DNA from: a virus
DNA length: 64,000 nt
Reading direction: 5' to 3' (one strand)
Virus record (IMG/VR): IMGVR_UViG_3300027996_003225
The translations under genes and the position numbers were made by a program. Every line of letters starts with the position of its first letter. Position 1 is the first letter of the stretch. Under the pieces are notes generated by a model. It was not told the DNA's origin, did no database searches, and saw only the letters and a program-made list of their open reading frames with translations. Positions 24,667 through 39,125 of this stretch are shown one piece after another.

Positions 24667-25263
24667 TTATTTATCAGGCTCAACAAGCAGTCTATCGATT
24701 TTCTCTTTTGATCTAAACTTAAACTCATCATGCCACCCAGTAGTTTTCCCCGTGTACCTCACGTTGCCCTTCAAAAACCTTCTCACAGCATACTCAGTAT
24801 CTGAAGTATATCTAATACTTAAGAGAGCTTCTTCAAAATTGTTCTCTACCCAATCATAGTTTTGGGAACAACGAAGCATCATGGTAAAAAACGACCTTCT
24901 CATGCCAGTCTTGGTCCAAAATGGAACAACTTTTATCCAAGAAATTGTTGATCTTTGAGTTGGGCCAATTCGAGACTTGTCTTTAAGTTTCAACTTGTTT
25001 TCGACTTTTCTAATAAACCTAGCAACATCTTCTGTTTGATGTTTCGAGTGAGAATATAAAATCCTTGTCACTCCCTGAGATTCTTGTTGAAACCATTCTC
25101 TGCAAAAGTACCACTTATTCGCCAGCCAAATTTCTTCGTTAGAAGGATGTGTTCGGGAGGAATGTCTAACTTTAGAAAAGGAACCTTGAGTGACTCGCAT
25201 TGCAGAAGATCGTTTCTCACCAGTATCATTAGCAACTTTCTTTTTCTCGCCAATAATTGACAT
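24667..25263 (-). CDS. Hypothetical protein
   Basis: 198-aa ORF, GGAG SD. Confidence 0.65.
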   Translation of the reverse strand: MSIIGEKKKVANDTGEKRSSAMRVTQGSFSKVRHSSRTHPSNEEIWLANKWYFCREWFQQESQGVTRILYSHSKHQTEDVARFIRKVENKLKLKDKSRIGPTQRSTISWIKVVPFWTKTGMRRSFFTMMLRCSQNYDWVENNFEEALLSIRYTSDTEYAVRRFLKGNVRYTGKTTGWHDEFKFRSKEKIDRLLVEPDK

Positions 25264-25282
25264 CTATTTTCTCCAAGGGTTC

Positions 25283-25768
25283 TTAAGAGCTTTCTTCTGT
25301 CAGAATGTTTGCTCTAATCGTAAGGCCATCCTCAGTGTTTTCGATGGCGTCATCTAAATTTATCAAAGAGACACAACTCCAGTGAGGATCATCACGAGGA
25401 ATATATTCCTGTTGGGTATAAAAGTAAACCTCAACTGTATAGCTGTATTTCTTTTTTGCTAAATCATCGTGAGACATCCCAGCCAACAAATCCTCCGACA
25501 TCTCTCTTGGAATCCGAATAGAATCTTTTTCATTTGCGTGAAGCAGTTTTCGCATGATTTGCATAACTGCTTCAATTTTTCCATCCCCTTGAAGCATCGA
25601 CATAATGTTTCTTTTTTCCATTCCATCAAGAAACTCAGCTTTGGCTGTGTAACAAGCCATAACCTGACCTCTCTGAGGCTCATGCCTTCTGACATCAAAA
25701 AAATATTGATCAAAATTTTCTTCCGTGATGACCAGCAACTCTTCTTTTTCTTTTTCTTCTTCACTCAT
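25283..25768 (-). CDS. Hypothetical protein
   Basis: 161-aa ORF coupled to dnaE C-half. Confidence 0.65.
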   Translation of the reverse strand: MSEEEKEKEELLVITEENFDQYFFDVRRHEPQRGQVMACYTAKAEFLDGMEKRNIMSMLQGDGKIEAVMQIMRKLLHANEKDSIRIPREMSEDLLAGMSHDDLAKKKYSYTVEVYFYTQQEYIPRDDPHWSCVSLINLDDAIENTEDGLTIRANILTEESS

Positions 25769-25769
25769 T

Positions 25770-28502
25770 TTATATTCCCACTATTGTAAAGCCTTCATCG
25801 TTTATATCTTTCAAAAGCTTTTCCTCTGCCTTGGAAGGCTCATGCTTTATTTCAACTTGTTCCGGTTTAGCCATGACGACGAGTCTGCCATCTGCTGCTT
25901 TTTCAGGTAGCTCCGAACGATTTCGTTTGGTCGGACTCTGAAAAACGTGACTGCTAAATCCGGGATCAGGTCGATTGATCCTCATTCTAAGAAAGTTACC
26001 TTGGCGGAATTCTCCGTCCCAATGCTCTATTTCTTCCTTAAATCTAACAAAATCATCTTCCCACATCGTCACCAGTCTTGTGTTAAAATTTTCATCTTGA
26101 ACAGTAAAAACATAATAAGGATTTCCCTTTTTAGAAAGCCTCTCCTGTAATGATGACTCCTTTTTAGGAAGCCCTTTTTTATCCAAGCTTACTATCTGAC
26201 ATTCAATTGGTGCCCAAAGCAAGGTTGATTCCTCATCAAAACGGTCAAAAGTCATTCCGCCTTTATAGTCAGGGCTGAACTCTATAGGATGCTGCCATGC
26301 GAATCCATAATACATCGATTCTGCAATGCCTAGCAACTCGTTGTAAACATTTTCAAATCCCGTGTCGATTTCTCCAGAAGGCATAAAATCAGCAAGAGTG
26401 ATTGGCAGATCAGAATCTTTCTTCTTCTTCAAAGATTCGACGTTTCTCTTGTACTTCTTTCCAATCTTTAAAATGTCTTCCAAATCATCTTTTAAGTGTT
26501 GGAAATTAAAATTCTCAAATTCAAATTCAGAAATGAAGAAATCTTTCTTAGGCAAATCTAATAAACCGCTTTTCAGAATCTCTTTTAAAAAGTTTTCAGA
26601 GGAACCATCGCCCCCATTCTTGTAAAGAACGTAGTCCATCTCTTCTACAATTTTTAATTTAGATTTATCCGCACGCTTATCTCTGTCCTGACGCTTTTTT
26701 GTTTCATGTTTAAAGTACTCCCAAAATTCATGGAGCACCTTTCTGTCTTCCTCTTCTCCGAAGCAATTTAAGGCAATCAAAGGCTTTAGAACTTTTGAAT
26801 CTGTGCCAAATCTTTGCAAGAAGTCATCAAATCCACTGTATGGCTGTCCTTCCTCGATCTTATGAGAGACATCTTCCCCTATTCCCTTAATGTCAGAGAA
26901 GCCCATATAGACCAAATCATCAACAATTTCCCAGTTCCAACCTGATTTGTTGATGTCTACCCTTTTTAGCTCTACACCATCTTTCTCTGCCTCAAGTTTG
27001 TAATCTTTAATTTTACCTGACTGGGTTTCGCATTGCAAAGTTCCACAATAAAACTCAATTGGAAAATGTGCCTTCAAGTAAAGAAGCCTAGACGAAATAT
27101 AAGAATATGCGTAAGCGTGGCTTGCGTTAAATCCGTACTCTGAAAAAGCTTCCACTTGATCCCACAGTTCTTCAACTTCTTTCTTTTCCCAGCCGAGATT
27201 TGATTGCCCACGACCAACGAACTGCTCTTTATATCGAGCAAACTCCTTAACCTTTTTCTTACTCATTGCTTTTCTGACTTTTTCGCAATGAATAAGCGGA
27301 ATGTCTCCCACGACATTCAAAATTTTCATAACCTGTTCTTGGTAAACCATAACTCCATATGTTCTGCCAAGAATTGGCCTGAGAATCGGATGCAAATCTC
27401 CATCCATGTCTGGAACTGGATTACTAACAGGCTCTTGTCCTCTTTTTCGCCTGATGTACGTTTTATCCATGTCCATATTAAGAGGGCCGGGTCTGTACAG
27501 AGCAGAATAAGCAGGTAAATCATCAAACCCTGTTACACCGCCTTTTTTAACCATCTCACGCATTCCATTAGAATCAAACTGGAAAATGCACTTTAGCTTT
27601 CCTTCATCCGCTAAAGCAATTGCTTTAGGGTCATTCAGATAGGCAGTATCAGACCAATCGTCATCCGTGCCATCCAAAGCAGATATTGTCTTTATGTGAG
27701 GATGATTCCTTTTGACTAACTCGCTGATGGTTACAATTCTTTTCAAATCCGTAACAACCAAGAGGTCAAATTTAATCAAACCCAAAGGGCCTAAGTCGGT
27801 TCCAGACAGCCCTTCCACAAATGCAGAAACATAAGCGTCGTCTTTGCCCTTAACCAGTGGAACCAGTTTATTGATTCTTTGATCAGAAATGATTAGCCCA
27901 CCAGCATGCATTCCCATTCCACGATTGCGATTTAAAAGCCTACGGGCAGCGTCTGCAACATCTGGATTGTCTTCGCAATATTTGCCCAATTTCTCAAATT
28001 GCTCTAAAGCTTTATCGAAAGTAAGAGTCTTGCCATCATTATCTTTCAAGCCAAGCTGAGTGGTTAGTCCTATAATTTCATTTCGATCCTTATCATGGAC
28101 CTTGGCCATATCAATTAAAGAACTTTTTATTCCGTAAGTTGTGTAGTTGCCAATTGCGCAAACATTTTCTTTTCCAAACTCTTTCGGTGCCCACTCAACC
28201 TTTAGATAATCACGAACTTGAGGTAAGTAATCTATATCAATATCTGGAAACTCGCCCTGTACAGAAACTGGTGGCAAATTTATGTCGAAATCATCGACCA
28301 AGTCTAAAAGATAAGCAATTAAAAGATTGTTTTCATTGTTTTCAAATTTAGCTTTTTTAGAATGAAGATCTACAAAATACTCATGTTCCGCCTGAGCATC
28401 AAGCTCTTTAAGCTCCTCTCTTAATCGCTCTTTATATTCAGAAGAATCTAAGCCCTTTTTGGACATTCCTTCCACGCAAAGTTTTAGTAGTTGATCTCTC
28501 AT
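25770..28502 (-). CDS. dnaE: DNA polymerase III alpha, C-terminal half (catalytic palm, fingers, HhH, OB); no PHP domain
   Basis: PDIDID, GMHAGG, LIKFDLL, SALYRPGP, TYGVMVYQEQVM, YGFNASHAYAY, C-terminal OB fold. Confidence 0.93.
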   Translation of the reverse strand: MRDQLLKLCVEGMSKKGLDSSEYKERLREELKELDAQAEHEYFVDLHSKKAKFENNENNLLIAYLLDLVDDFDINLPPVSVQGEFPDIDIDYLPQVRDYLKVEWAPKEFGKENVCAIGNYTTYGIKSSLIDMAKVHDKDRNEIIGLTTQLGLKDNDGKTLTFDKALEQFEKLGKYCEDNPDVADAARRLLNRNRGMGMHAGGLIISDQRINKLVPLVKGKDDAYVSAFVEGLSGTDLGPLGLIKFDLLVVTDLKRIVTISELVKRNHPHIKTISALDGTDDDWSDTAYLNDPKAIALADEGKLKCIFQFDSNGMREMVKKGGVTGFDDLPAYSALYRPGPLNMDMDKTYIRRKRGQEPVSNPVPDMDGDLHPILRPILGRTYGVMVYQEQVMKILNVVGDIPLIHCEKVRKAMSKKKVKEFARYKEQFVGRGQSNLGWEKKEVEELWDQVEAFSEYGFNASHAYAYSYISSRLLYLKAHFPIEFYCGTLQCETQSGKIKDYKLEAEKDGVELKRVDINKSGWNWEIVDDLVYMGFSDIKGIGEDVSHKIEEGQPYSGFDDFLQRFGTDSKVLKPLIALNCFGEEEDRKVLHEFWEYFKHETKKRQDRDKRADKSKLKIVEEMDYVLYKNGGDGSSENFLKEILKSGLLDLPKKDFFISEFEFENFNFQHLKDDLEDILKIGKKYKRNVESLKKKKDSDLPITLADFMPSGEIDTGFENVYNELLGIAESMYYGFAWQHPIEFSPDYKGGMTFDRFDEESTLLWAPIECQIVSLDKKGLPKKESSLQERLSKKGNPYYVFTVQDENFNTRLVTMWEDDFVRFKEEIEHWDGEFRQGNFLRMRINRPDPGFSSHVFQSPTKRNRSELPEKAADGRLVVMAKPEQVEIKHEPSKAEEKLLKDINDEGFTIVGI

Positions 28503-28508
28503 ATGAAA

Positions 28509-28537
28509 TTTATAACCTAAATCAATTACATTTGCAA
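28509..28537 (-). promoter_or_regulatory. Sigma70-like promoter with predicted start at or next to the dnaE C-half ATG (leaderless)
   Basis: TTGCAA (28532-37), 17 nt, TATAAA (28509-14), 6 nt, ATG; no SD. Confidence 0.55.
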
Positions 28538-28538
28538 C

Positions 28539-28940
28539 TTATCTTTTTCTTTTGACAACATTTGAATCTTTTCTCTTTCTTCTTCTTTTTGGCTTTTCTT
28601 CCTCTTTTTCTTCCTCAACCGGAATAGGTTCTGGATCGAGTTGAAGAACAGACGAATCGGTCCACTTATGTCGATCCCACACCTGAACTGAACGGTTAAA
28701 TTTTTGAAAAACCTTTTCTGCCTCGGTTTTTAAATCTTTTAAAGTGTTGCTTTCCTTGTAGTGAACGTAACAATTAGGATTATCTTCTTTAGACAAACCT
28801 AGAACATATCTGAACTCGTATTTGACCATTCCATATTCATCAAATTCTAATTCAATTTTAGGTTTTTCTTCTTCGCCTTCTATTATTTCCTCTTCTATTA
28901 TTTCCTCTTCTTTAATCTTCCTCTTTCTTCCCATTTTCAT
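28539..28940 (-). CDS. Hypothetical protein with charged termini (start moved to MKMGRKRK)
   Basis: ORF track 28539..29006. Confidence 0.55.
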   Translation of the reverse strand: MKMGRKRKIKEEEIIEEEIIEGEEEKPKIELEFDEYGMVKYEFRYVLGLSKEDNPNCYVHYKESNTLKDLKTEAEKVFQKFNRSVQVWDRHKWTDSSVLQLDPEPIPVEEEKEEEKPKRRRKRKDSNVVKRKR

Positions 28941-29184
28941 TCCAGTATATTTGAGTGTGTTTATTGTTTTTGGAAAGCCATTCATGAACGTGATGGAGTG
29001 TATCAATACAATCTTGCTCAGTGAAATCCTTTAGCCTCTTTTTCTTTGGGAAATATGAATACTCTGAACTATCCGACCAGCCCTCGCCAGCAAGCTCCAT
29101 CCCAAAGAGACCTTCTGCGTGCCCTAGAAACGAAGCCAGGAGAGACGTTACGTCTTGCAATTGTTTTAATTCATCAGAACTCAT
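28912..29184 (-). CDS. Hypothetical protein (start moved to MSSDEL)
   Basis: Sub-ORF of track 28912..29244. Confidence 0.5.
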   Translation of the reverse strand: MSSDELKQLQDVTSLLASFLGHAEGLFGMELAGEGWSDSSEYSYFPKKKRLKDFTEQDCIDTLHHVHEWLSKNNKHTQIYWNENGKKEED

Positions 29185-29186
29185 TT

Positions 29187-29444
29187 TTAATCCCAAATTA
29201 AAGTGCTTCTGTACCAATCCTTGACCCAAAAATGATCTCTCCACATGGGGTCAAGTTTATATGGATGCTCTTTGTAATAATCCATTAATTTTATATTCAG
29301 CATCCCTTTCATTTTGGCATACTCTACAGGATCTATTTCTTGGCCGCAATCCTGGCATGTATAGCTCCCAATTAAACTATACATGCCATTAAATGTTGCA
29401 TTGTCGTGTTCGCAGATTAAGTCATCATAACTCTGATGCATCAT
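29187..29444 (-). CDS. Hypothetical protein with possible Zn site
   Basis: CEH..CQDC. Confidence 0.55.
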   Translation of the reverse strand: MMHQSYDDLICEHDNATFNGMYSLIGSYTCQDCGQEIDPVEYAKMKGMLNIKLMDYYKEHPYKLDPMWRDHFWVKDWYRSTLIWD

Positions 29445-29553
29445 CTGGGGCTTCCTTGAAAAAGTCTAAGGGGTATTCAACAACCGCACCTGTCTCCAAC
29501 GGCTGAATTTCAAAAATCAAACTCAAGTCAACATATTGCCCGTGAAATATCAT
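29425..29553 (-). CDS. 42-aa ORF below track threshold (MIFHGQYVDLSL...)
   Basis: Fills the gap exactly between two minus-strand genes. Confidence 0.4.
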   Translation of the reverse strand: MIFHGQYVDLSLIFEIQPLETGAVVEYPLDFFKEAPDDASEL

Positions 29554-29952
29554 TTAATGATCTCCCTCAAATATGTTTCCAATTACTTCTATTTCACCCA
29601 GAAAATCACAATGTAACCAACCGCCGTTGGGAACCCAGATTCCCCAACATAGATTATCTAAAGTTTGATCACTGTTCCACTCAACAAACCCAACATATCT
29701 TTCGCCGCCAATATCTGAGTTGTCAAAAACAACTTTATCTCCCTCGTAAATGTCAACTCCATTTTTATCTACAAGACCAATCCACTGCTGAGTAATGATG
29801 CCTTCTATTGGATGTGACAACCGATGACAATTATGGCAGTCACTAGGGTTGGGACGAAAGCTGCTGCTGCATATGCCACGATTGCCAATATGCAGATTTT
29901 CCCTGAACATGCCAGAGCTTTGATCCCAGAATCTAAACCTAAACCTACTCAA
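29554..29952 (-). CDS. YopX-family phage protein
   Basis: FRFRFWD..QQWIGLVDKNGVDIYEGD..EVIGNIFE. Confidence 0.88.
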   Translation of the reverse strand: MSRFRFRFWDQSSGMFRENLHIGNRGICSSSFRPNPSDCHNCHRLSHPIEGIITQQWIGLVDKNGVDIYEGDKVVFDNSDIGGERYVGFVEWNSDQTLDNLCWGIWVPNGGWLHCDFLGEIEVIGNIFEGDH

Positions 29953-29971
29953 GTCATCTCCAATTTAAACC

Positions 29972-30190
29972 TCAATTATTTTCCGCAAATATCTCGTTAA
30001 AATAAGCCCTCGACGCTTCAGCGGTATCGTATCCGCTTGGATTAGTCTCCATGAAATCAGCAACATCTGCCGATGGACCAATTTGAACTAATTCTTCAAA
30101 GCATTCACGACATATGTAACCGTATGTATGAGAGTACCTTTCACACATGACGTTAGGACAATTTCCTCTGGCACAGGGAAGAACACTCAT
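29972..30190 (-). CDS. Small Cys-rich hypothetical protein
   Basis: C.R..C..C..C.EC. Confidence 0.6.
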   Translation of the reverse strand: MSVLPCARGNCPNVMCERYSHTYGYICRECFEELVQIGPSADVADFMETNPSGYDTAEASRAYFNEIFAENN

Positions 30191-30220
30191 TTCTTTTCCT
30201 TTGATATTAGAGTTTCAAAC

Positions 30221-30249
30221 ATCTTAAAAAAATGTCACGCATGAGTCAA
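30221..30249 (-). promoter_or_regulatory. Sigma70-like promoter
   Basis: TTGACT-17-TAAGAT upstream of 30190. Confidence 0.55.
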
Positions 30250-30284
30250 TAAAAAAAAGCTCAGTCATGCTTCATAACTCATAA

Positions 30285-30318
30285 TAAAAAAGCTCCCCTC
30301 GCAATGCGAGGGGAGCTT
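30285..30318 (-). terminator. Intrinsic terminator downstream of tmRNA
   Basis: AAGCTCCCCTCGC-3 nt-GCGAGGGGAGCTT stem plus T-run on minus. Confidence 0.85.
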
Positions 30319-30321
30319 CAG

Positions 30322-30677
30322 TGGACCGGACGGGAGTCGAACCCGTGTGTTGCGCTACCTATTCAAAAGCGTCTACCTGTATAGTTTGATGTTTGAGTTT
30401 CGCATCATTAAACCACAACAAACAAAGGTTTAAATCAACTATCAAACAACGAGTCTTAGTTCAAAAGTAGTTTGATTTGCTTTGAACGCATCCAGTATTG
30501 CGGCAAGTTGTCAAACGTCACTGGCAGACCTTTGAAACTTGGGCTACTTATAATTAAGCAGCCATAGCGAAATTAGTTTTGTCAACTAAATTTTTAATCG
30601 GATTTTTAAGGAGCCTTCCGATCAACTCCTACAGGCAACTCAAGAACTCAACAGCCAATCGATACCATTTCCAGCCC
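30322..30677 (-). ncRNA. ssrA: tmRNA (356 nt), tag (A)DKTNFAMAA*; CCA not fully encoded
   Basis: 5' GGGCTGG pairs with 3' CCGGTCC-A including G3:U70; T-arm ACGGG-TTCGACT-CCCGT; UAGUU precedes resume codon; tag ORF 30554-30583. Confidence 0.95.
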
Positions 30678-30687
30678 GTGTGTTTTA

Positions 30688-30716
30688 GTTATACGCAAAA
30701 AAGATATTTTTGTAAA
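30688..30716 (-). promoter_or_regulatory. Sigma70-like promoter of tmRNA
   Basis: TTTACA-17-TATAAC, 10 nt upstream of the mature 5' end. Confidence 0.6.
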
Positions 30717-30724
30717 CTTAATTT

Positions 30725-31045
30725 CTAATTTTTATGAGCATCTGCCCATTTTGAATCTTCTGGAATGTCGTGTGTTTTGACGTAATCTCGCCACTTTTCA
30801 TATCCATAAAGATCGATATATTCGCCTCTTCTTAGAGATCTTTTTTCTTCTGCCTGCTTGAGAATCTTTTTCCTATCTTGATCAAGCTTTGGATAATCGG
30901 CACGACCAGATTGCTGCGATGCTGCTGTATTCGCCCTCTTTAGCTTCTTTTCAAAAGATTTACTAGTTTTTCTCAACTCTTCCCGTCCTTCTAAGAACTT
31001 AGAAAAATTCATAAAATATTCAGTCTGTTTGTTGTGTGATTTCAT
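30725..31045 (-). CDS. Small basic protein (start at 31045, or at 31012 giving MNFSKFLEGREE)
   Basis: TATATAATAGT directly before ATG 31045; CTS-like motif at the second Met. Confidence 0.55.
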   Translation of the reverse strand: MKSHNKQTEYFMNFSKFLEGREELRKTSKSFEKKLKRANTAASQQSGRADYPKLDQDRKKILKQAEEKRSLRRGEYIDLYGYEKWRDYVKTHDIPEDSKWADAHKN

Positions 31046-31703
31046 ACTATTATATACCAGCATGGTAAAAATATATTCCAACATATTTCCAGGAAAAATC
31101 ACTGGCAGCGAATTCTGGAACAGGAATGGCCACTTAAATGACACCATCTGCTTTCTAAATGATTATTACAAATTTAATTTTTTATGTATACCCAAAAATG
31201 CCTCGAACACCATACGTAAAGAGCTTAATTCCAAAAGAGAAAAACTATTTTCCAAACTGAACAAGGATGAACAACTTTATCCAATTATCTGCTTTGTAAG
31301 ACCTGTGGATGATAGATTTTGGTCTGCTGTCAATACTATTTTGAGAAGAAAAAACGGCAGCACTAGAATGTTTTTAAGAAACTGCGATAGTATCGAGAAA
31401 TTAGCAGATTACATTGCCTCCGGTAACGACCCGCACCTTGCATCCGTTTCCGTCTTAACATCAAACATAAAACACACGGACATACGTTGGTATGATTTGA
31501 AGGTTTTAGACCAACTTAACATTTGCCACCCAAGCATAAATCGCAATTTTGACACTTTAGACACATTGAAGCAGCTTGACATATTTGGATCAAAAAAAAT
31601 CCAATCTTATTATGAAAAAGATTTTGAAATTTATGAAAACTCAAAAAAAGAGATTGAAAACATTAAGTTGAAGAAGTTATGTCATAAAAAAAGCCTGTTT
31701 TAA
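31029..31703 (+). CDS. Sulfotransferase family 2-like protein
   Basis: FLCIPKNASNTI (5'-PSB-like) and FVRPVDDRFWS (3'-PB-like). Confidence 0.7.
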   Translation: MLCDFILLYTSMVKIYSNIFPGKITGSEFWNRNGHLNDTICFLNDYYKFNFLCIPKNASNTIRKELNSKREKLFSKLNKDEQLYPIICFVRPVDDRFWSAVNTILRRKNGSTRMFLRNCDSIEKLADYIASGNDPHLASVSVLTSNIKHTDIRWYDLKVLDQLNICHPSINRNFDTLDTLKQLDIFGSKKIQSYYEKDFEIYENSKKEIENIKLKKLCHKKSLF

Positions 31704-31717
31704 AAACAGGCTTTTTT
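31686..31717. terminator. Bidirectional intrinsic terminator
   Basis: A-run-GCCTGTTT..AAACAGGC-T-run between convergent genes. Confidence 0.75.
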
Positions 31718-31742
31718 ATTTCGGCTTATGGAAATTCTTGTT

Positions 31743-32441
31743 TCATCTCATGTTCATATAGCTTTTCATGGCGTCAGGCATTCCATCTGGAAGTCTTCTT
31801 TCACTGTGTTTCGATCTTAATCTTTCGAGTGGACCCATTTCGTCATCCATGCCCTCTTCGTCGTCTTCCATGTCTTCGTCGTCAGCATCCATGTCCATTT
31901 CGTCGGCATCCATGTCTTCGTCGTCGGCATCCATGTCTTCGTCGTCAGCATCCATGTCTTCGTCGTCAGCATCCATGTCTTCGTCGTCAGCATCCATGTC
32001 TTCGTCGTCAGCATCCATGTCTTCGTCGTCATCCATGTCATCTTCAGTGCCCATGGGAGGACCAACCGCTTCGTTTTTATTTTGCATAAATGCATCAAAG
32101 CTTTCTGGCCATGTTTTTGCCTCTTTGCCGCTGGCATCTGTGTCTGGACTGTAGATTAAGTTTTTGTCGCCATCGTCTCCAAGTCCTTTTTCTTTGCCAC
32201 CATCTGCAACTTGCATCCCAGGGTCTTTACCAGCAGCTTTGTATGGTGCAGGCTTAGAAGTTTTACTTCCAGCTACGTCTTCCATACCTTTTCCATCATC
32301 CTTTAACTTACGACCAGCCTGAGACTTCTCTGGAGAAGCTGGGGTTGGACCGTCATAGTCAGCAACTTTTTTAGTGCTTGCCTTTTCTCTCGTCTTGCTT
32401 CTAGAGTCTATATACTCGTTCCAAGTTTTCCAATTGTTCAT
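31743..32441 (-). CDS. Acidic low-complexity protein with DMDADDE repeats; candidate internal head/scaffold-like protein
   Basis: MNNWKTWNEYID N-terminus; second WPESFDAFM motif precedes the acidic repeat. Confidence 0.7.
   Translation of the reverse strand: MNNWKTWNEYIDSRSKTREKASTKKVADYDGPTPASPEKSQAGRKLKDDGKGMEDVAGSKTSKPAPYKAAGKDPGMQVADGGKEKGLGDDGDKNLIYSPDTDASGKEAKTWPESFDAFMQNKNEAVGPPMGTEDDMDDDEDMDADDEDMDADDEDMDADDEDMDADDEDMDADDEDMDADEMDMDADDEDMEDDEEGMDDEMGPLERLRSKHSERRLPDGMPDAMKSYMNMR
31850..32043 (-). repeat. 21-bp coding tandem repeat, about 8-9 units (DMDADDE)
   Basis: catgtcttcgtcgtcagcatc repeated head-to-tail with no spacers. Confidence 0.9.
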
Positions 32442-32449
32442 CTTTTCTC

Positions 32450-32632
32450 CTAATGTGCATTTTCTGCTATTAGCATTATAATTAATAAAATGAGATAAAG
32501 CCCTAGGCCAGTGCCGAAAAATACAATGCCTAAAACAAATCCTAGTCTAACTGTTGTAGGGTTGATGTTTAAGTCTCTTCCCAATCCTGAACAGACACCA
32601 AACAAAACCTTATTGCCAAGATCTCTCTTCAT
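32450..32632 (-). CDS. PspC-domain membrane protein
   Basis: RD..NKVLFGVCSGLG..INPTTVRLGFV..GLGLYLIL. Confidence 0.88.
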   Translation of the reverse strand: MKRDLGNKVLFGVCSGLGRDLNINPTTVRLGFVLGIVFFGTGLGLYLILLIIMLIAENAH

Positions 32633-32698
32633 AATATACTCCTGTTTTATATTTAGTGTATTATGTGCTTTTTTTTTAAAGCATAAAGTATATATTGT

Positions 32699-33019
32699 AT
32701 GCAATTCAGAAAATGGCTAATAAAAGAAATGGCTCACATATCAATTGATGAACCAATCGACATTGGAGATCAAAAAAATGTATCTATGATTGATATGCAG
32801 TTTGAACTATATCCCGACATGACCCAGACAACTCTAGCTCACTGGATAGTCAACGGATTTGCCGCCAAAGTCCCAAATAGCAATTATTATATAGTTTTTG
32901 ACGGAAAAACAGGAAAAGCAAAGGTGTCCGATTCGACAGAGAACAAAATGCAAGTTCCTGGCGAATGGCACAAAATGGCTTATATGTCGAGCGATATGCC
33001 AGCTTGGAAATCTGCGTGA
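32699..33019 (+). CDS. Hypothetical protein with CTS-like N-terminus (MQFRKWLIKE)
   Basis: 106-aa ORF; AGTATATATTGT before ATG. Confidence 0.6.
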   Translation: MQFRKWLIKEMAHISIDEPIDIGDQKNVSMIDMQFELYPDMTQTTLAHWIVNGFAAKVPNSNYYIVFDGKTGKAKVSDSTENKMQVPGEWHKMAYMSSDMPAWKSA

Positions 33020-33020
33020 G

Positions 33021-34680
33021 TTATTGATCTGACCAAACACGATCAGTTCTTCCTAGAAAAGGCGCAGACTCAATTGCTTCGTCCATGGGAATGGGATCAA
33101 TATTCGAAAAAGATGGTTCTCCCGAAAATCTAAACTTAATTTGTTTTCCGCCACGAGCAGGACTCAAAAATCTAGAAAACAATAGACCATGCTTGATTGG
33201 ATCGACATCCGTTATCCCAAGACAGTAGCAACTAAGAGCACCAACTGCCGAGCCTCTTCCGGGACCGACTGCCGAAGAACCGCTGGAGCCATATGTCTCA
33301 AAGTACCATCTTCTGGCTTCATCGGTCATCATTTTTTGGATCAAAAAGTAAGAGGAAAAGCCTTTTTGGCAAATTAAAGAATATTCTTCTTCTATCCTAT
33401 CCAAATATTCTTTATTCCTAGGAATTTTCCTCTTAACAACCCCTTCTATGATTGATTCCTTAAACTTAATGTCAGATTCGCTAAATGCAGGAAGTTTGAT
33501 AGTTCTATCAAGCTTTACGCCTTTTGCTTTTTCGCAAAGGGCAACGGTATTTAACTTGGCCTGCTTAAGTATTTCGTAATCTATTACATCCTTGTAATCA
33601 CTTTCCCACTTCGCATTTATCTCTTCTTCTGACTTCATCCATAAGTTTGAATCTTGCAATTCGAACATATCAGCCATGTCATTCTGTGCCAACGCTTGTT
33701 CGATTTGCTTCATGGTTCTTCCTGTTTGAACCATAATCATCTTTCTCTGCATTTCGCTGTCTTCTTTGAGACAGTAGTGGCAATCATTTGTAACAATAAT
33801 TGGTAAATTATATTTTTGGCTGGCTTTTATTATAAACTCATCATAAGGCTTTTGTTTCGAGAAGTCTAAAAGCATTATTTCTAGATAGAAGTTTTCTCCG
33901 AACATGGCCATATATTTTTCGACCATCTCCATAGCTGGACCTTCGCCACCCACATCAAAAGCTTGTCCAATTTCACTGTTATAACAGCAAGAAGTGAATA
34001 TAATTCCTTCTTTATATTGCATGAGGACTTCGTGATTGACTCTGGGTTTCCTGTAGAAACCCCTCGTCCAACCCCAAGATGAAAGAGTAACCAGATTGCT
34101 GTAGCCTGTTTCATTATAGGCTATGGCAAGCAGATGATTCGATTTTCTTAACTTGGCTTGCTCTTCTTGCGTACCCAGACCTCTATTGAATTCCGTCATA
34201 GAAGGAATAGTGGTCGTGTCAGGCTGCAACTGATTTACATAAAGCTCACAAGCAAATATAGGCTCTAGGTTGTTTTCATCGCATGCTCTAATCTGGCGTG
34301 GGACAGAACCCATCGCACCATGATCTGATATGCATAAAAACTTTTGATTTACCTGTTTAGAATATTTTCCATATTCTTCAACAGTGGCGTATCCATCTAA
34401 GCACAAACTCCACAGTTTCTTGTGGTGTAGACTATATCATCACCCCGAAGGGTGTCGGACGCTCTGGCCTGTAATTAAGAGGACTGAACCTCTCAGGTAG
34501 TCGTTGCACGTTCCAAAAGTGTACTTCTGGCTTCGCTCAGGATTGCCCTCGACTTTACGTTAGGGTTTCCCTGAATTCATCCGATTTGCATGCAAGATTT
34601 CTCTCACATGGCCCCAGTTAGTTAAGGCTGAAATCAGTATGTCTGTGTAGATGTTCAAAACCTACAATCAGGTCTTTCAT
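33021..34680 (-). CDS. dnaE: DNA polymerase III alpha, N-terminal half (PHP plus start of palm); spliced: exon1 34625-34680, exon2 33021-34401
   Basis: Joined exons give MKDLIVGFEHLHRHTDFSLLDGYA; SDHG, ACEL, TSCC, NDCH, GPGRGS, YCLGITDVDP, FSRFLSPAR; GGAG SD before 34680. Confidence 0.93.
34402..34624 (-). mobile_element. Group I self-splicing intron, 223 nt, no internal ORF
   Basis: P: AATTCAGGGAA; Q: AATCCTGAGC; R: GTGCAACGACTA; S: ATGATATAGTCT; P1 with U.G, P2 (GAAA), P3 TCGGATG/CGTCCGA, P7, P8 (TTCG), P9, terminal G. Confidence 0.93.
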
Positions 34681-34740
34681 ATTTTACTCCTTTAGATTCA
34701 AGATACTTTTCAAATTCGCCAGCGTCATATTTGCCATTAT

Positions 34741-35265
34741 TTAATCTTTCCATTGTTTCCATTTGCCCGTCTTTTCATTTTTAAAGTAAAAAGCAGCTTT
34801 TGGATCTTGTGTGTCTACCTTGAAGAAAGGCTCAGATCCTTTTCTGTTTCTGCACCACTTGTTTTCAACAGGCGACTCCAGCATGGCTTCACGATTTACA
34901 ATGAACAGCCTTTTGTAATCGCCCCCGATTATCATCATATGAGTGGCATGCTCTTCTGCTTTGTCCCTTTTGCGGTAAGGGAAGTCCATTGTATGAAATT
35001 TGAAAGGAACGTCAAACCATTTTGTTCCCCAATCTTGCTTTATCTCGGCCTCAATTCTCCATTCACCGATACTCTTTTTTGAATGCGTTCCAGCAACATC
35101 CCATATCTTTTTAAATTTTCCTCTGCTCTCGTCTAAGTTCTCTGATATTTTTTTGAATCCACGTTGTTGTAAAAATTCCGTTGCCACTAGCTTTGCAGGT
35201 CCATCATACTTTTCGTACCTATCTTTGCAAAACCTTATATCATTAGGTTTTGGCATCAAATACAT
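34741..35265 (-). CDS. Putative PD-(D/E)xK nuclease
   Basis: WDVAG..RIEAEIK (D..ExK). Confidence 0.5.
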   Translation of the reverse strand: MYLMPKPNDIRFCKDRYEKYDGPAKLVATEFLQQRGFKKISENLDESRGKFKKIWDVAGTHSKKSIGEWRIEAEIKQDWGTKWFDVPFKFHTMDFPYRKRDKAEEHATHMMIIGGDYKRLFIVNREAMLESPVENKWCRNRKGSEPFFKVDTQDPKAAFYFKNEKTGKWKQWKD

Positions 35266-35969
35266 TCCTTAAACTTAGAGCATCTCCTTATCTTTGCTAT
35301 AGTTTCGAAACCTTTGGTTCCCAAAATCCCATCAGCAAAGCCGTAGTACACTGCCTCTTCCGCAGACATGTACCAATCACTCTTATCCTTGAGCTTTTTA
35401 TCTATCCAAGATATAATTCGTGATTCTGTGTATTCTTTCTCTAAAAAGAACTCTCCAATCTTACAGCGTCTAGCAAATATTTGCAACATACGTTTCATAT
35501 ATTTATTATTCATTTCCACAGCGGAGTTTACAGCTATGGAGTTATCATGCAAAGCTATAGAACCATGGTGAATCATGAATTCACAATTAGGCGTTAAAAC
35601 TCTTTTATCAGCCGCTTGCAACAAAATTCCACTCATAGAAGAAGCTTGTGCATAAGTAACAAACGTGACTGATGAGTTTGCAAATCTAATTGCATCAAAC
35701 ATCGCTAACCCATCGCACCAACTTCCGCCAGTAGAATGCATGTGTACCAGTACGTTTTCAGAATTCTGATTCTCTAAAACAGATAAATTTTTATTAAATC
35801 TAACTGCCATTCTGTAATCTACACCTGGTTCGGAATCGTCAGACAAAGGGCTTAAAGAACTGTGCAGAAAGAGTTCTCTTGTATAGTGATTGATATTGTG
35901 AGAGTGAACATCGCTGAGAAGCTGTTCAATTTCCGACTTTTTACGCAAACTATTTTTCGTTGTAGCCAT
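35256..35969 (-). CDS. clpP: ClpP-like ATP-dependent protease proteolytic subunit
   Basis: HSTGGS, QASSMS (Ser), FMIHH (His), DWYMSAEEAVYYGFAD (Asp); GGAGG SD. Confidence 0.88.
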   Translation of the reverse strand: MATTKNSLRKKSEIEQLLSDVHSHNINHYTRELFLHSSLSPLSDDSEPGVDYRMAVRFNKNLSVLENQNSENVLVHMHSTGGSWCDGLAMFDAIRFANSSVTFVTYAQASSMSGILLQAADKRVLTPNCEFMIHHGSIALHDNSIAVNSAVEMNNKYMKRMLQIFARRCKIGEFFLEKEYTESRIISWIDKKLKDKSDWYMSAEEAVYYGFADGILGTKGFETIAKIRRCSKFKECI

Positions 35970-36080
35970 CGCAACCTCCAAAAAAGTCTTTATTTAATTC
36001 ACTATTATATATCTGATTTATATTCTATTTATCTTTTTTAACTTCCTTCCTAGGAAAATATTAAAACTATTAACTTCAAA

Positions 36081-36121
36081 AATGTTCATAAGTCCTTTTA
36101 TTTAAAGAACTTATGAACATT
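36081..36121. repeat. 13-bp perfect inverted repeat
   Basis: AATGTTCATAAGT...ACTTATGAACATT between spoVR and clpP. Confidence 0.7.
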
Positions 36122-36219
36122 ATGATCTTTAGAGATCCCATTCTCAGCCTCAGATTGTTTATCACTCATTGCTTACATCCCTTTTGACTTTCTTTAATGC
36201 TTTTAGCAGGTCGAACACC

Positions 36220-37812
36220 CTATAGCGATTCGTATTCTTCTCTGGTCATGACGGCCACATCGCCATCCTGTGTTCCTACGCACCAATAAACTATTTCTTC
36301 GTCATCGGAACCAGTAGTAGACAACACCACATCATTCCCCCAAATGAATCTTAAAGACTTTAAAGTGGGGATTAAATCCGGCTCATACAAGCCTCTGCCA
36401 TCGGAGTTGTGCTCTAGCAACATGACTCCCTTGCCTTGGTGGTTTGGATCTACTAGATATATCTCTGGCAAGCCTCCATTCAAATGTCTTTTGATCAACT
36501 TACTTTTGATTGACTTGTGGTCACGATTTTCAATCTTGTACTCGCCATTTGGATATCTTTTCCATTCAAAAAACTCATATTTATTACAAAAATCTTCTGT
36601 GAAAAACTCCATCAAAGCTGTTAGGTCATTATATTGCTTTCGAACATCAAATATTTTATCTCTGCCTAGACCTAGATTCTTATCCCAATTTTCTTTTTCT
36701 ACTATATTGCTACATTCTTCGTACTCTTGGCCAAACTTGCCTTTATTCCACCTCTCTTCGATATCCAACAAAAGACAGAATCCTAGCTTATAAGGATTCA
36801 TCGAATACTTGCCTCCGAGAACGCCCATCTTGTGAGCGGAGTATTCAACGATGCCGCAGTCTTCGCCTGTCTGCCCTAAGCCACAAAGTCCCATTTCACA
36901 CATTACTGTATAATCTGTAAAGCTTGCCCATCCTTCGTTGAGCATTTTTGTAACTCTTTGAGGCGAAAAATATAAACTTTCCTCATACATCATGGAAAGA
37001 ATGTCTGACTGCCAAGGTTTCAAAGGAGCACTATCTCTTAAAAATCCCATAATGTCTTTAGTTGGATTTTTAAATATTCCAATTTGCTGTGCGGCCTCAT
37101 CTCGACTAATCTTTTCTTTTTGGCCATCAATCCATCTTTTAGGATTGATATAAGGCTCCATGTAATCACGGTCAGAATTTACACCTAACCTTTTAGGCTG
37201 CTTGTAGGTTCTCTCATCTTGTATGACACGATCTTTTACAACCTTTTCTTCCCAAGCCTTCGCTGAGTCTATCAAAGTTTCAATCGAGCAGCAGTGGTCG
37301 ATAAATTCTGTAACTTTCTCCACGCCCCAACGCTGCATGTATTTTCGGATGCGGGTTCCATGATTAGCAAGTTGGTTCATCATATTTTGCGAGGTGGGCG
37401 CAAAATATATGTTGTTCTTAAAAAAGTCATTGTGGCCTAAAGCGTGAGCAATAACCGTAACATTATCCACCAGCGTATTTGAATCCAAACAGTAGATGTA
37501 ACAAGGATTGGTATTAATAACCATTTCATAAATTCGGTGCATCCCATGCTCGTAACCTTTTTGAAGGCTTTCGTATTCCATTCCCCATTTCCAGTGTGGG
37601 TAACGAACTGGAAATCCTCCGTAAGATGCAACTTCACTTATTTCATCGTAAGTCAGCATCTGAACAACGGTGGGATAAAAATCGCAGCCGAAGTCTTTAA
37701 CTGCCTTGAATATGTCAGGCATAATCTTCTTAATCTCACTAGGAAGCTGAACGCCTGGCACAGTGCTGTCACCGAGAAGCAGAGAAGAGCCTCTGAAAAA
37801 TTTACTAGACAT
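36220..37812 (-). CDS. spoVR: SpoVR/YcgB family protein
   Basis: GGFPVRYPHWKWG, IYEMVIN, HALGHNDFFKNN, TKMLNEGWAS, NPYKLG. Confidence 0.95.
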   Translation of the reverse strand: MSSKFFRGSSLLLGDSTVPGVQLPSEIKKIMPDIFKAVKDFGCDFYPTVVQMLTYDEISEVASYGGFPVRYPHWKWGMEYESLQKGYEHGMHRIYEMVINTNPCYIYCLDSNTLVDNVTVIAHALGHNDFFKNNIYFAPTSQNMMNQLANHGTRIRKYMQRWGVEKVTEFIDHCCSIETLIDSAKAWEEKVVKDRVIQDERTYKQPKRLGVNSDRDYMEPYINPKRWIDGQKEKISRDEAAQQIGIFKNPTKDIMGFLRDSAPLKPWQSDILSMMYEESLYFSPQRVTKMLNEGWASFTDYTVMCEMGLCGLGQTGEDCGIVEYSAHKMGVLGGKYSMNPYKLGFCLLLDIEERWNKGKFGQEYEECSNIVEKENWDKNLGLGRDKIFDVRKQYNDLTALMEFFTEDFCNKYEFFEWKRYPNGEYKIENRDHKSIKSKLIKRHLNGGLPEIYLVDPNHQGKGVMLLEHNSDGRGLYEPDLIPTLKSLRFIWGNDVVLSTTGSDDEEIVYWCVGTQDGDVAVMTREEYESL

Positions 37813-37817
37813 ATTTT

Positions 37818-39050
37818 TTATCCTTGAATCTTCTTTTCTATTAAACCCGGTTTTCCTAATAAATCAATAATTGCTTCTCTGATTTTTACGTCTCTTTCTT
37901 CCTCTGAAATTTCAGAAGCAGGCCCCCAACTAGATACATTGTCTTCTGAGTCAGACATTATATCTGTGGTCACAACGTTAGAAGGAGGGCTTTCCGACAT
38001 TAAAACATTCTCATCTACATATTCTTTCAAGCTTCCCTTGTATCTCCAAGGCAAAATTTGAGCTATTCCTATAAAGTTGACAATATCTTCTGTGAATTGA
38101 TCTTTTATTATTTTTGAAAAGACTTCGTTGTCATTGTCCCAGTTTTCCCCGTCAGTAAAATAAATTACGTACACATTCCACTTTTCAGGAGGAAACCTAT
38201 TTTCCATCTGCTTTGAAATTAATTTCAAAGCAGATGAACATGTTGTTCCACCACCATATCGGTATTTATAGAATCTTTTCTCATCAACTTCCGAAGCTTC
38301 TGTGTCGTGCCAAATATAACATCTTTCGACACGTTTATAAAACTGCCTTATCCATAAATCTATCCACCAAGACATATCGCTAACAATATCACACTTTGTC
38401 TGGTCCATTGAAGCAGATCCATCACGAGCGAAAAATATAACAGCATTGCTCGATGGAACTTTTATTTCTTTATATCGCCTATACCTGCGATCACTGTTTA
38501 TCGGCATGATCATTTTTACAGGCTCCTTCATGCCGGGAATGGCATGGAGTTTTTCCAATTCTCCAGAAGCAGCCATTCTCTTCATGGCTTGCTGCATAGT
38601 TCTTCGATTGTGCCTTAAGGATTCTGGACCTTGTAATGAAATATCATTGTATTTAATTTTAATTTCATCATAAGTTTGATTTGGCTTTGGCTTTAAATCA
38701 GGAAGTTCTAATTCATCCTGAAGAAATTTTAAAACATCTTCCAAGTCTATGGATATAGTAACGCCATCAGATTGTCCTTGTCCTGCCTTGCCCTTGCCTT
38801 TTCCATCGCCTGGATCATCTCTCCCAACTACGTCTCCAGGTTTTCCACCGCCACGTCCGACTCCCTCGCCACTATTCCCATAAACAATATGTGGTATGTC
38901 TATTTTTGGGATTGTGATGTTTATCTTTTTCCCATCTCCACGAGTTCTAAATATAGATCCGTTTTTAATCCTCTTTTGAAGATCTTTTCTTATTCGGCCA
39001 GAATAAACATCTCTAAATCTTTTGTGGTCTTCTTCAATACGTCTTGGCAT
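37818..39050 (-). CDS. yeaH: YeaH/YhbH (DUF444) vWA protein
   Basis: LQDELELPDLKPK, DRRYR, RDGSASM (MIDAS), GGGTTCSS, YFTDGENW. Confidence 0.93.
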   Translation of the reverse strand: MPRRIEEDHKRFRDVYSGRIRKDLQKRIKNGSIFRTRGDGKKINITIPKIDIPHIVYGNSGEGVGRGGGKPGDVVGRDDPGDGKGKGKAGQGQSDGVTISIDLEDVLKFLQDELELPDLKPKPNQTYDEIKIKYNDISLQGPESLRHNRRTMQQAMKRMAASGELEKLHAIPGMKEPVKMIMPINSDRRYRRYKEIKVPSSNAVIFFARDGSASMDQTKCDIVSDMSWWIDLWIRQFYKRVERCYIWHDTEASEVDEKRFYKYRYGGGTTCSSALKLISKQMENRFPPEKWNVYVIYFTDGENWDNDNEVFSKIIKDQFTEDIVNFIGIAQILPWRYKGSLKEYVDENVLMSESPPSNVVTTDIMSDSEDNVSSWGPASEISEEERDVKIREAIIDLLGKPGLIEKKIQG

Positions 39051-39125
39051 TACTGAACCCTTTAGTAGTCTAAAATAAAGAGCCACCCCCACAAAGAAGT
39101 GAAGAGTGGCTCATCCTCTTTATAT

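What the first reader, a model, noticed from the sequence alone, without database searches (positions are those of the whole stretch)
25770..34680. Intein-free split DnaE whose two halves share a duplicated, degenerate sub-domain
Seen: the N-half (PHP plus GPGRGS..YCLGITDVDP..FSRFLSPAR) stops just where DnaE normally continues into PDID. The C-half, 4.5 kb downstream beyond tmRNA, pspC, yopX and other genes, supplies PDIDID and KFD. Neither junction has intein blocks. The first ~85 aa of the C-half (LLKLCVEG..YKERLREELKEL..EYF..NLLIAYLLDLVD) are a decayed copy of the last ~100 aa of the N-half (KESIIEG..YLDRIEEEYSLI..SYF..ALSCYCLGITD), without GRGS. Established: the known split DnaE of cyanobacteria is rejoined by an intein; GRGS arginines bind dNTP phosphates. 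Inference: the active site is built in trans from two polypeptides, with the duplicated helices forming a pseudo-symmetric or domain-swap interface. The C-half has its own sigma70-like leaderless promoter, so the halves may be regulated independently.
Basis: partly seen in the sequence, partly recalled or inferred. Interest (0 to 1): 0.85.

Follow-up and report, generated by a model that had tools for sequence, protein, structure and literature searches.

The report
Two-gene phage DnaE with overlapping halves
This huge phage encodes its DnaE-type replicative DNA polymerase as two separate genes cut through the active site, with no intein. The break and a short sequence carried by both halves are conserved in more than a thousand relatives, so the enzyme is almost certainly put together from two proteins.

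Summary

**The two halves**
- dnaE-N (exon 1, a 223-nt group I intron, exon 2; 478 aa once spliced) carries the PHP domain and the nucleotide-binding half of the palm (GPGRGS, LLFSRFLSPAR).
- It stops 4.5 kb before dnaE-C (910 aa), which carries PDIDID, K244/D246, fingers, HhH and OB.
- tmRNA, pspC, yopX and other small ORFs lie between them.
- No intein, homing endonuclease or second intron was detected at the break.

**The shared segment**
- Both halves align to the same stretch of E. coli Pol III alpha, about residues 313-396.
- The C-half copy (residues 1-85) lacks GRGS and FSRF. The N-half tail has no Asp where the catalytic DxD strand would be.
- Both leftover copies are conserved.

**Distribution**
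- The split is not an artefact. Independent assemblies repeat the arrangement, and 1564 stand-alone N-halves were found.
- Gaps between the halves range from 1 to 13 kb.
- Trees of both halves place the few intact genes of this clade inside the split clade (AU p 0.0004), which points to a later re-fusion.

**Reading**
The most likely reading is a non-covalent two-subunit polymerase with a composite active site. How the two subunits fit together was not tested.

**Precedent**
The closest published case is the split minimal Pol III alpha of jumbo phages (Iyer 2021). This scan has already noted similar split DnaE genes on other DNA (e1-1940658, e1-3895680, e1-5338876).

The parts
34625..34680 (-). 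dnaE-N exon 1 (ATG 34680; encodes MKDLIVGFEHLHRHTDFS and the first two bases of the next Leu codon). It carries the HxH metal ligands of the PHP domain.
   Evidence: Sequence read. Junction fixed against the intron-less allele of a 94 %-identical relative (P0004 / L053). Spliced translation.
34402..34624 (-). ORF-less group I intron, 223 nt, inside the first PHP motif. If unspliced, the reading frame stops after ..FSLN.
   Evidence: Rfam RF00028, 90.7 bits (gathering score 50), hit at 34409..34634. Exact ends come from U at the 5' splice site, a terminal G, and the intron-less allele. A homologous intron sits at the same site in L043.
33021..34401 (-). dnaE-N exon 2, including the stop codon. 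It encodes the rest of PHP plus the nucleotide-binding half of the palm.
   Evidence: Pfam PHP 2e-29; DNA_pol3_alpha positions 17-98 of 260. 56 % identical to residues 21-433 of the intact relative. Aligns to E. coli alpha up to residue 396.
33153..33464 (-). N-half copy of the overlap (FKESIIEG .. LLFSRFLSPAR), which keeps GPGRGS (33249..33266).
   Evidence: Coordinates. It is the most conserved part of the N-half (mean pairwise identity 0.81). G396/G398/R399/G400/S401 and L423-F428 are invariant in 50 homologues. Cis inteins sit inside GRG|S in P0032 and P0093.
33024..33152 (-). N-half tail. An invariant GG (33147..33152), preceded by the invariant Arg of FLSPAR (33153..33155), is followed by an amphipathic strand-like stretch (33120..33146) in the place of the DxD strand, but without Asp. 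The distal part is variable.
   Evidence: Alignment of 34 N-ends. R433/G434/G435 invariant. pLDDT below 50 when folded alone.
28503..33020 (.). 4.5-kb gap. It holds tmRNA 30319..30677 (-) with terminator 30289..30319, pspC 32450..32704 (-), an acidic-repeat ORF 31743..32441 (-), yopX 29554..29952 (-), a phrog_22735 ORF 29972..30190 (-), and further small ORFs on both strands.
   Evidence: A 107-kb contig of a close relative has the same gene order. No endonuclease family matches any of the 10 ORFs.
28509..28537 (-). Promoter-like TTGCAA-17 nt-TATAAA, ending 6 nt before the dnaE-C ATG. This suggests a leaderless mRNA.
   Evidence: Sequence. A -10-like hexamer also lies 6 nt before the ATG in L007, L022, L029 and L012. 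Not listed by the consensus scan. No expression data.
25770..28502 (-). dnaE-C, 910 aa: metal-binding half of the palm (PDIDID 28230..28247; LIKFDLL 27759..27779), thumb, fingers, HhH and an OB fold.
   Evidence: Pfam. AF2 model with mean pLDDT 80.8. VIA Z 22 to Taq and E. coli Pol III alpha, and OB-fold matches for residues ~745-880. D87, D89, D91, K244 and D246 are invariant in 36 homologues.
28248..28502 (-). C-head (residues 1-85): the degenerate but conserved second copy of the overlap. It lacks GPGRGS and LLFSRF, and has a conserved NENN in place of the GS loop.
   Evidence: Confidently helical in the model. In the two best-scoring structural matches it superposes on Taq 356 onward and E. 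coli 311 onward.

Best explanation
This is a naturally split C-family (DnaE-type) replicative polymerase made of two polypeptides that are not joined covalently.

Subunit N (478 aa after self-splicing of a group I intron) supplies the PHP domain and the half of the Pol-beta-like palm that holds the incoming dNTP triphosphate (GPGRGS, FSRF).

Subunit C (910 aa) supplies the three metal-binding carboxylates (D87, D89, D246), K244, and the thumb, fingers, HhH and OB domains.

The catalytic centre exists only when the two associate.

The gene most likely arose by a duplication of about 85-110 codons around the break, for example by single-crossover insertion of DNA carrying an internal dnaE fragment, or by an internal tandem duplication followed by insertion. 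Each copy then lost what the other kept. The remnants, the C-head and probably the N-tail, were retained, most likely as scaffold or interface.

Shown here: the anatomy, the homology of the overlap, the absence of an intein, and the conservation.

Inferred: the assembly, the role of the remnants, and the mode of origin.
For: **Clean, complementary break.**
- Pfam profile positions 17-98 versus 100-259.
- The N-half maps to E. coli alpha 313-396. The C-half profile maps from 314 onward in one stretch.

**Homology of the overlap.**

**Conservation.**
- 1564 stand-alone N-halves were found, and the best 120 are 422-697 aa long.
- 49 PHP-less C-halves share the head.
- In the IMG/VR loci the N-half ORF ends 47-72 aa after GPGRGS wherever it is not intact. 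A C-half lies 1-13 kb downstream on the same strand wherever enough sequence is held.
- GRGS/FSRF are invariant in N-halves. DxDxD/KxD are invariant in C-halves.
- The GRGS segment is the most conserved part of the N-half (0.81). The C-head (0.49) is better conserved than the linker (0.31) or the OB domain (0.41).
- Inteins target GRG|S in some N-halves, and inteins usually sit in functionally important, highly conserved sites (the generalisation is my own knowledge).

**Not an artefact.** The same arrangement occurs in a 94 %-identical relative seen on 24 or more contigs from several samples.

**Each half folded alone is least confident at the junction elements.** The N-tail 429-467 and the C-half strands 82-90 and 231-247 all fall below pLDDT 50.

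**Precedents.**
- A split minimal Pol III alpha divided into NTP-binding and Mg-binding proteins (PMC7824862).
- The PhiKZ split family-B polymerase, which forms a stable 1:1 complex (PMC13648687).
Against: - There is no direct evidence of interaction or activity.
- No heterodimer model could be computed.
- The C-head occupies the canonical palm position in the monomer model. It is therefore unclear how the homologous N-half segment would reach the catalytic strands.
- Low pLDDT is weak evidence.
- The whole genome is not held, so another polymerase in this phage cannot be excluded.
- A conserved NENN in the C-head could in principle replace the GS loop.
Confidence: 0.72

Rival explanations
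1. Functional divorce. The C-half is a self-sufficient polymerase whose degenerate head, with its conserved NENN, replaces the GS loop. The N-half is an independent PHP exonuclease or pyrophosphatase subunit, analogous to a separate proofreader.
For: The C-head is confidently folded and sits at the canonical palm position in the model. N56 and N59 are invariant. The PHP metal ligands are conserved in the N-half.
Against: A mere proofreader would not need GPGRGS and LLFSRF, yet they are invariant and form the most conserved part of the N-half. Inteins sit in GRG|S. The break lies about 140 residues past the PHP/palm boundary. In Pol-beta-fold enzymes the GS motif is part of the catalytic core (established knowledge).
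Confidence: 0.13
2. Covalent joining after transcription or translation, by an unrecognised split intein, a trans-splicing intron, or ribosomal bypass.
For: The same gene already holds a group I intron. Relatives carry inteins and odd short inserts. Phage dnaE genes fractured by split inteins are known (PMC2677866).
Against: No Hint or intein family matches, even at E <= 10. Invariant Gly-Gly follows the N-extein-like end, where an intein would need Cys or Ser. There is no HN plus Cys/Ser/Thr before PDIDID. The C-head is DnaE-derived, not intein-derived. No further intron-like RNA appears in 25000..36000 at E <= 10. The gap holds a tmRNA with its own terminator and ORFs on both strands. Joining would also duplicate the overlap.
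Confidence: 0.03
3. A decaying or non-functional gene pair, or an assembly artefact.
For: The duplicated segment looks degenerate. The record is a metagenome-type sequence.
Against: More than a thousand homologues keep both ORFs open, with invariant catalytic motifs. The same architecture is found in independent assemblies. The remnants are under constraint.
Confidence: 0.02

Closest known systems
Split minimal DNA polymerase III alpha of group 2.2 jumbo phages (Iyer, Anantharaman, Krishnan, Burroughs, Aravind 2021, PMC7824862)
   Same: No intein or other joining element is described. [quoted passage not shown]
   Different: That enzyme is a minimal core without PHP or the other Pol III domains, and it accompanies a family B polymerase. 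The enzyme here is a full-size DnaE (PHP, fingers, HhH, OB). No duplicated overlap, re-fusion or intron is mentioned in the passages I read.
Cyanobacterial split DnaE with a naturally split intein (Wu, Hu, Liu 1998; Caspi 2003; as cited in PMC2677866)
   Same: dnaE is encoded as two genes at separate places.
   Different: There the break is at another position. Each half ends or starts with an intein half that splices the protein into one chain. Here no intein motif is present and the flanks are DnaE-derived.
'Fractured genes' of environmental phages: split intein plus a free-standing homing endonuclease between the halves (Dassa et al. 2009, PMC2677866)
   Same: These are phage-like replication genes, dnaE included, in two nearby pieces with unrelated DNA in between.
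   Different: Both a split intein and an endonuclease gene are required there. Neither is found here.
Non-covalent split phage polymerases: PhiKZ DNAP-N/DNAP-C (family B; PMC13648687). From memory, also gp43A/gp43B of Aeromonas T4-like phages and the mobE-split NrdA of phage Aeh1.
   Same: The two polypeptides assemble without splicing. For PhiKZ a stable 1:1 complex was shown experimentally.
   Different: These belong to a different polymerase family or enzyme, with different break points. I know of no reported duplicated overlap.

Membership tests
C-family DNA polymerase, DnaE type (Pol III alpha) | N-terminal PHP domain with its metal ligands | tested here: met
   Pfam PHP E 2e-29. HxH lies in exon 1. 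DHG, E69, H106, C156 and D223/H225 are invariant in 50 homologues. The domain needs intron splicing to be complete.
C-family DNA polymerase, DnaE type (Pol III alpha) | Pol-beta-like palm with a GS motif and three catalytic carboxylates | tested here: met
   GPGRGS is in the N-half. D87, D89 and D246 (with K244) are in the C-half. All are invariant. They lie on two polypeptides.
C-family DNA polymerase, DnaE type (Pol III alpha) | Thumb, fingers, HhH and OB domains | tested here: met
   Pfam finger 1.3e-39 and HHH_6 9.5e-13. VIA Z 20-22 to chains of 4iqj, 5fku and 2hnh, and OB-fold matches at residues 745-880.
C-family DNA polymerase, DnaE type (Pol III alpha) | One continuous polypeptide | tested here: not met
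   Two ORFs lie 4.5 kb apart. The same holds in relatives.
C-family DNA polymerase, DnaE type (Pol III alpha) | DNA polymerase activity | not testable with these tools
   Needs biochemistry.
Split-intein DnaE / fractured genes | Hint-domain blocks: Cys or Ser at the start of the N-intein; His-Asn plus Cys/Ser/Thr at the end of the C-intein | tested here: not met
   No Pfam intein or Hint match at E <= 10. The N-half continues with invariant Gly-Gly. The C-head aligns to DnaE itself.
Split-intein DnaE / fractured genes | Free-standing homing endonuclease gene between the halves | tested here: not met
   Ten gap ORFs were scanned with Pfam and PHROGs. Only PspC, YopX and two PHROG families of unknown function match.
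Split minimal Pol III alpha of group 2.2 jumbo phages | Break between the NTP-binding and Mg-binding subdomains, with the halves in distant genes | tested here: met
   compared with the description in PMC7824862.
Split minimal Pol III alpha of group 2.2 jumbo phages | Minimal architecture: no PHP and no other Pol III domains | tested here: not met
   PHP, fingers, HhH and OB are all present.
Split minimal Pol III alpha of group 2.2 jumbo phages | Co-occurrence with a family B polymerase | not testable with these tools
   No whole genome is held. None was seen among the window ORFs scanned.
Group I intron (the element in dnaE-N) | Rfam RF00028 above the gathering score; U at the 5' splice site; terminal G; an intron-less allele exists | tested here: met
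   90.7 bits against a gathering score of 50. Ends at 34624 and 34402. Intron-less allele in L053.

The most novel reading that the evidence does not exclude
DnaE has a naturally permissive fission point between the GS motif and the DxD strand. Phages have used it repeatedly, and the fission can be reversed.

In this clade an insertion-duplication split the gene. The two overlap copies degenerated reciprocally and became a conserved subunit interface, possibly pseudo-symmetric or strand-swapped. One nested lineage (LR756511, L044, P0179, P0182, P0184, P0189) later re-fused the halves precisely, restoring the canonical spacing.

Other, unrelated DnaE lineages end at the same point without the RGG signature, which suggests independent fissions.
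Probability: 0.4. Interest if true: 0.75.

Novelty: new variant of a known kind. Interest (0 to 1): 0.62.

Why it matters
Replicative polymerases are textbook single-chain catalytic subunits. Here a full-size DnaE is cut, without an intein, between the residues that hold the dNTP and those that hold the metals. The cut has been kept by selection in a very large group of huge phages.

If the halves assemble as inferred, three things follow:
- The Pol-beta-like catalytic core of C-family polymerases can be rebuilt from two proteins.
- This would be a natural case of duplication followed by reciprocal degeneration inside one gene, apparently followed by a re-fusion.
- It would give a ready-made split site for engineering two-part polymerases.

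It also matters for annotation. PHP-only "DnaE fragments" and PHP-less "DnaE" in viromes are not pseudogenes.

Tried and rejected
- **Intein at the break.** Pfam at E <= 10 on the N-tail and the C-head found nothing. The inteins found in relatives are complete cis elements inside GRG|S, away from the break.
- **A second or split intron, or another joining RNA.** An Rfam scan of 25000..36000 at E <= 10 gave only the tmRNA, the one group I intron and chance-level hits.
- **A homing endonuclease in the gap.** None was found by Pfam or PHROGs.
- **Assembly artefact.** Rejected by independent contigs.
- **Whole-genome search for other polymerases.** No genome is held.
- **DNA-level relatives among deposited phages.** Only a 47-base chance-size match.
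- **First small trees, with distant outgroups only.** They were inconclusive for the N region (AU p 0.052), so closer outgroups and more rows were added.
- **Structural search with the N-half model.** Sequence mapping to solved structures was used instead.
- **Heterodimer prediction.** Not possible, because the tool takes one chain and pieces at most 60 bases apart.
- **Literature searches.** Three searches found no description of this break in a PHP-bearing DnaE within the held library. That is not proof that none exists.


Full report
**Anatomy**

All the genes concerned are on the minus strand. The N-terminal gene has a 56-nt first exon (34680..34625). It is followed by a 223-nt ORF-less group I intron (34624..34402; Rfam RF00028, 90.7 bits) and a second exon (34401..33021).

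The splice junction is fixed by an intron-less allele in a 94 %-identical relative (P0004 / L053). Splicing restores the PHP motif HLHRHTDFSLLDG and gives a 478-aa protein. If the intron stays in, translation stops after ..FSLN.

Pfam finds PHP (E 2e-29) and DNA_pol3_alpha profile positions 17-98 of 260 in this protein.

The C-terminal gene (28502..25770, 910 aa) starts 4.5 kb downstream. It matches DNA_pol3_alpha positions 100-259, DNA_pol3_finger and HHH_6. Its AF2 model (mean pLDDT 80.8) superposes on Taq and E. coli Pol III alpha with Z about 22 and ends in an OB fold.

The break therefore lies between the GS motif (GPGRGS, 33249..33266) and the first catalytic aspartates (PDIDID, 28230..28247). 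That is inside the Pol-beta-like catalytic core, not at a domain boundary.

**The gap**

Between the halves lie:
- a tmRNA (30319..30677) with a 14-bp terminator;
- PspC and YopX homologues and an ORF of phrog_22735;
- an acidic-repeat ORF;
- several small ORFs on both strands.

No homing endonuclease family matches any of the ten ORFs tested.

**No intein and no second intron**

No intein or Hint family matches either half. None matches the isolated N-tail or C-head even at E <= 10. The N-half continues after FLSPAR with an invariant Gly-Gly, and nothing resembling His-Asn plus Cys/Ser/Thr precedes PDIDID.

A permissive Rfam scan of 25000..36000 shows only the tmRNA and the one intron above chance level.

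**The duplicated segment is real**

- The direct pairwise match between the C-head and the N-end is weak (E 0.029).
- Against the intact 1179-aa DnaE of the closest deposited relative (LR756511.1, L001), the C-half aligns from its residue 10 to residues 336-437. The alignment carries a deletion where GPGRGS lies. The N-half aligns up to residue 433 of the same protein.
- A profile-profile comparison of 21 C-heads with 34 N-ends gives 93.7 % probability, E 2e-7.
- Against solved structures, the N-half covers E. coli alpha 313-396. A profile of 36 C-halves aligns in one stretch starting at E. coli residue 314.

Both proteins therefore contain a version of the same segment of about 85 residues.

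The N copy keeps GPGRGS and LLFSRF. The C copy has lost both and carries a conserved NENN where the GS loop would be.

Reciprocally, the N-half tail (invariant Arg-Gly-Gly, then an alternating hydrophobic stretch such as QIKFRFS) occupies the position of the DxD strand of intact genes, but has no Asp. This last correspondence rests on position and pattern only. It is an inference.

**A family trait, not an accident**

- A search with the N-half found 1564 proteins. The best 120 are stand-alone PHP plus partial-palm proteins of 422-697 aa, 59-94 % identical, from contigs up to 634 kb.
- A search with the C-head alone found 49 PHP-less C-halves.
- In IMG/VR loci the N-half ORF ends 47-72 aa after GPGRGS. 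A C-half with PDxDxD about 90-110 residues from its ORF start follows on the same strand, 1 to about 10 kb away. In two records where it was not within 10 kb, it lies about 13 kb downstream.
- A 107-kb contig of the 94 %-identical relative repeats the window's gene order. That N-half protein occurs on 24 or more contigs from several samples. An assembly artefact is excluded.

**Selection**

- GPGRGS, LLFSRF and RGG are invariant in 50 N-halves.
- D87, D89, D91, K244 and D246 are invariant in 36 C-halves. So are C9, E30, Y42, N56, N59, L66 and G83 of the head.
- Mean pairwise identities:

| Region | Identity |
|---|---|
| N-half, GRGS..FLSPA segment | 0.81 |
| N-half, RGG + strand | 0.59 |
| C-head | 0.49 |
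| C-half catalytic core | 0.61-0.63 |
| C-half linker | 0.31 |
| C-half OB domain | 0.41 |

- Two relatives carry complete inteins inserted exactly in GRG|S. Inteins usually sit in functionally important, highly conserved sites (my own knowledge).

A nucleotide-binding motif kept this strictly in a protein with no catalytic carboxylates argues that it works together with the C-half.

**Structure predictions**

Each half folds confidently except at the elements next to the break. The N-tail 429-467 has pLDDT 33-41. In the C-half the PDIDID strand (82-90) and the K244/D246 strand (231-247) fall below 50, while the head is confidently helical.

This fits a palm sheet that is completed only in the complex, but it is weak evidence. 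A heterodimer prediction could not be run.

**Evolution**

Only a few members of this clade are intact: L001, L044, P0179, P0182, P0184 and P0189. Their junction reads FLS(K/E)AR-x-D-aromatic-PD(A/V)D.

- In a 54-row tree of the N region they form one clade (100/100). It is nested in a starred clade of 35 rows whose other members, including deep branches at 33-41 % identity that share the RGG tail, are all split. The sister group is intact.
- Forcing the split rows into one clade costs 76 log-likelihood units (AU p 0.0004). The group was named after the tree was seen.
- A 42-row tree of the C region also nests the intact clade inside the split one. It is sister to a split C-half, with two changes forced by starred branches.
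- A smaller C-region test gave AU p 0.0086.

All split members share a deletion of the GS loop in the C-head, so many parallel fissions are unlikely. The economical reading is one fission followed by one re-fusion.

Further short N-halves that end at the same point but lack RGG (P0208, P0226, P0233, P0247, P0273, P0290) lie elsewhere in the tree. They hint at independent fissions. Their partners were not checked.

The overlap architecture, gene 1..x followed by insert followed by gene y..end with y < x, is what a single-crossover insertion of DNA carrying an internal gene fragment produces. This is offered as the likely origin. It is an inference.

**Expression**

Three observations make separate transcription of the C-half likely:
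- the tmRNA terminator inside the gap;
- plus-strand ORFs in the gap;
- a TTGCAA-17 nt-TATAAA element ending 6 nt before the C-half ATG.

A -10-like hexamer at the same 6-nt distance occurs in L007, L022, L029 and L012, which fits a leaderless mRNA. The element fails the strict consensus scan and there are no expression data.

**Comparison with what is known**

- The nearest published case is the split minimal Pol III alpha of group 2.2 jumbo phages, divided into NTP-binding and Mg-binding proteins encoded far apart (PMC7824862). It has the same topological break but is a stripped-down enzyme without PHP.
- The cyanobacterial split DnaE and the metagenomic "fractured" dnaE genes rely on split inteins (PMC2677866), which are absent here.
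- PhiKZ shows experimentally that a split phage polymerase can be a stable 1:1 complex (PMC13648687).
- Three literature searches found no description of this break in a PHP-bearing DnaE.
- Earlier notes of this scan report similar two-gene DnaEs on other DNA (e1-1940658, e1-3895680, e1-5338876). One other note reads such a break as an intein relic (e1-1943706). Nothing supports that reading here.

**Verdict**

The trans-assembled active site is the best-supported reading (0.72). The geometry of the interface remains open. This is a new variant of a known kind, the intein-free split polymerase. What is new is the conserved, reciprocally degenerate overlap and the evidence for a later re-fusion.

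Noticed in passing
window 34402-34624 (-): An ORF-less group I intron interrupts the first PHP metal-binding motif of dnaE-N. A 94 %-identical relative lacks it, and L043 has a homologous intron at the same site.
   Followed up: yes
L002, L008, L009, L015, L019, L022, L040, L047, L004, L007, L011, L010, L026, L035 (about 20-60 nt upstream of the LDG codons of dnaE-N): In relatives, the 15 nt between the HxH codons and LDG are interrupted by several kinds of insert. There are 5-, 7- or 8-nt inserts that begin with a stop codon and shift the frame, a 6-nt in-frame insert containing TAA, and about 40-nt GC-hairpin inserts. These resemble translational bypass or frameshift sites, and this stretch is a hotspot for inserted elements.
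   Followed up: partly
window 30319-30677 (-); L003/L005, L008, L010, L026, L027/L028, L032, L043, L050; L001 and L044: A tmRNA gene lies inside the gap between the dnaE halves in many split relatives. In L026, which has the shortest gap seen (about 1 kb), the tmRNA alone takes up about a third of it. In the two intact relatives the tmRNA lies 2-5 kb upstream of dnaE.
   Followed up: partly
L008 13360-13954: A tmRNA hit (56.5 bits) abuts and overlaps a group I intron hit (89.9 bits). The tmRNA gene there may itself be interrupted by an intron.
   Followed up: no
P0032, P0093 (relatives' N-halves): Complete inteins (a mini-intein and a larger one) are inserted exactly between GRG and S of the GPGRGS motif. 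Many cluster representatives of the family carry inserts of about 400 aa, which are probably inteins.
   Followed up: partly
L001 (LR756511.1), L044, P0179, P0182, P0184, P0189: The intact DnaE genes of this clade are nested inside the split clade in trees of both halves, which suggests a secondary re-fusion of a split gene.
   Followed up: yes
window 31743-32441 (-): An ORF of 232 aa with a long run of acidic DEDMDAD-like repeats. It matches no family.
   Followed up: no
window 35256-41240 (-): ClpP, SpoVR, DUF444 and PrkA homologues lie directly upstream of dnaE-N. They were identified through the syntenic genes of a close relative. The window also encodes DnaJ, ThyA, an IMPDH/GMP-reductase-like protein, a TPP enzyme, an aldehyde dehydrogenase and sugar-modifying enzymes.
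   Followed up: partly
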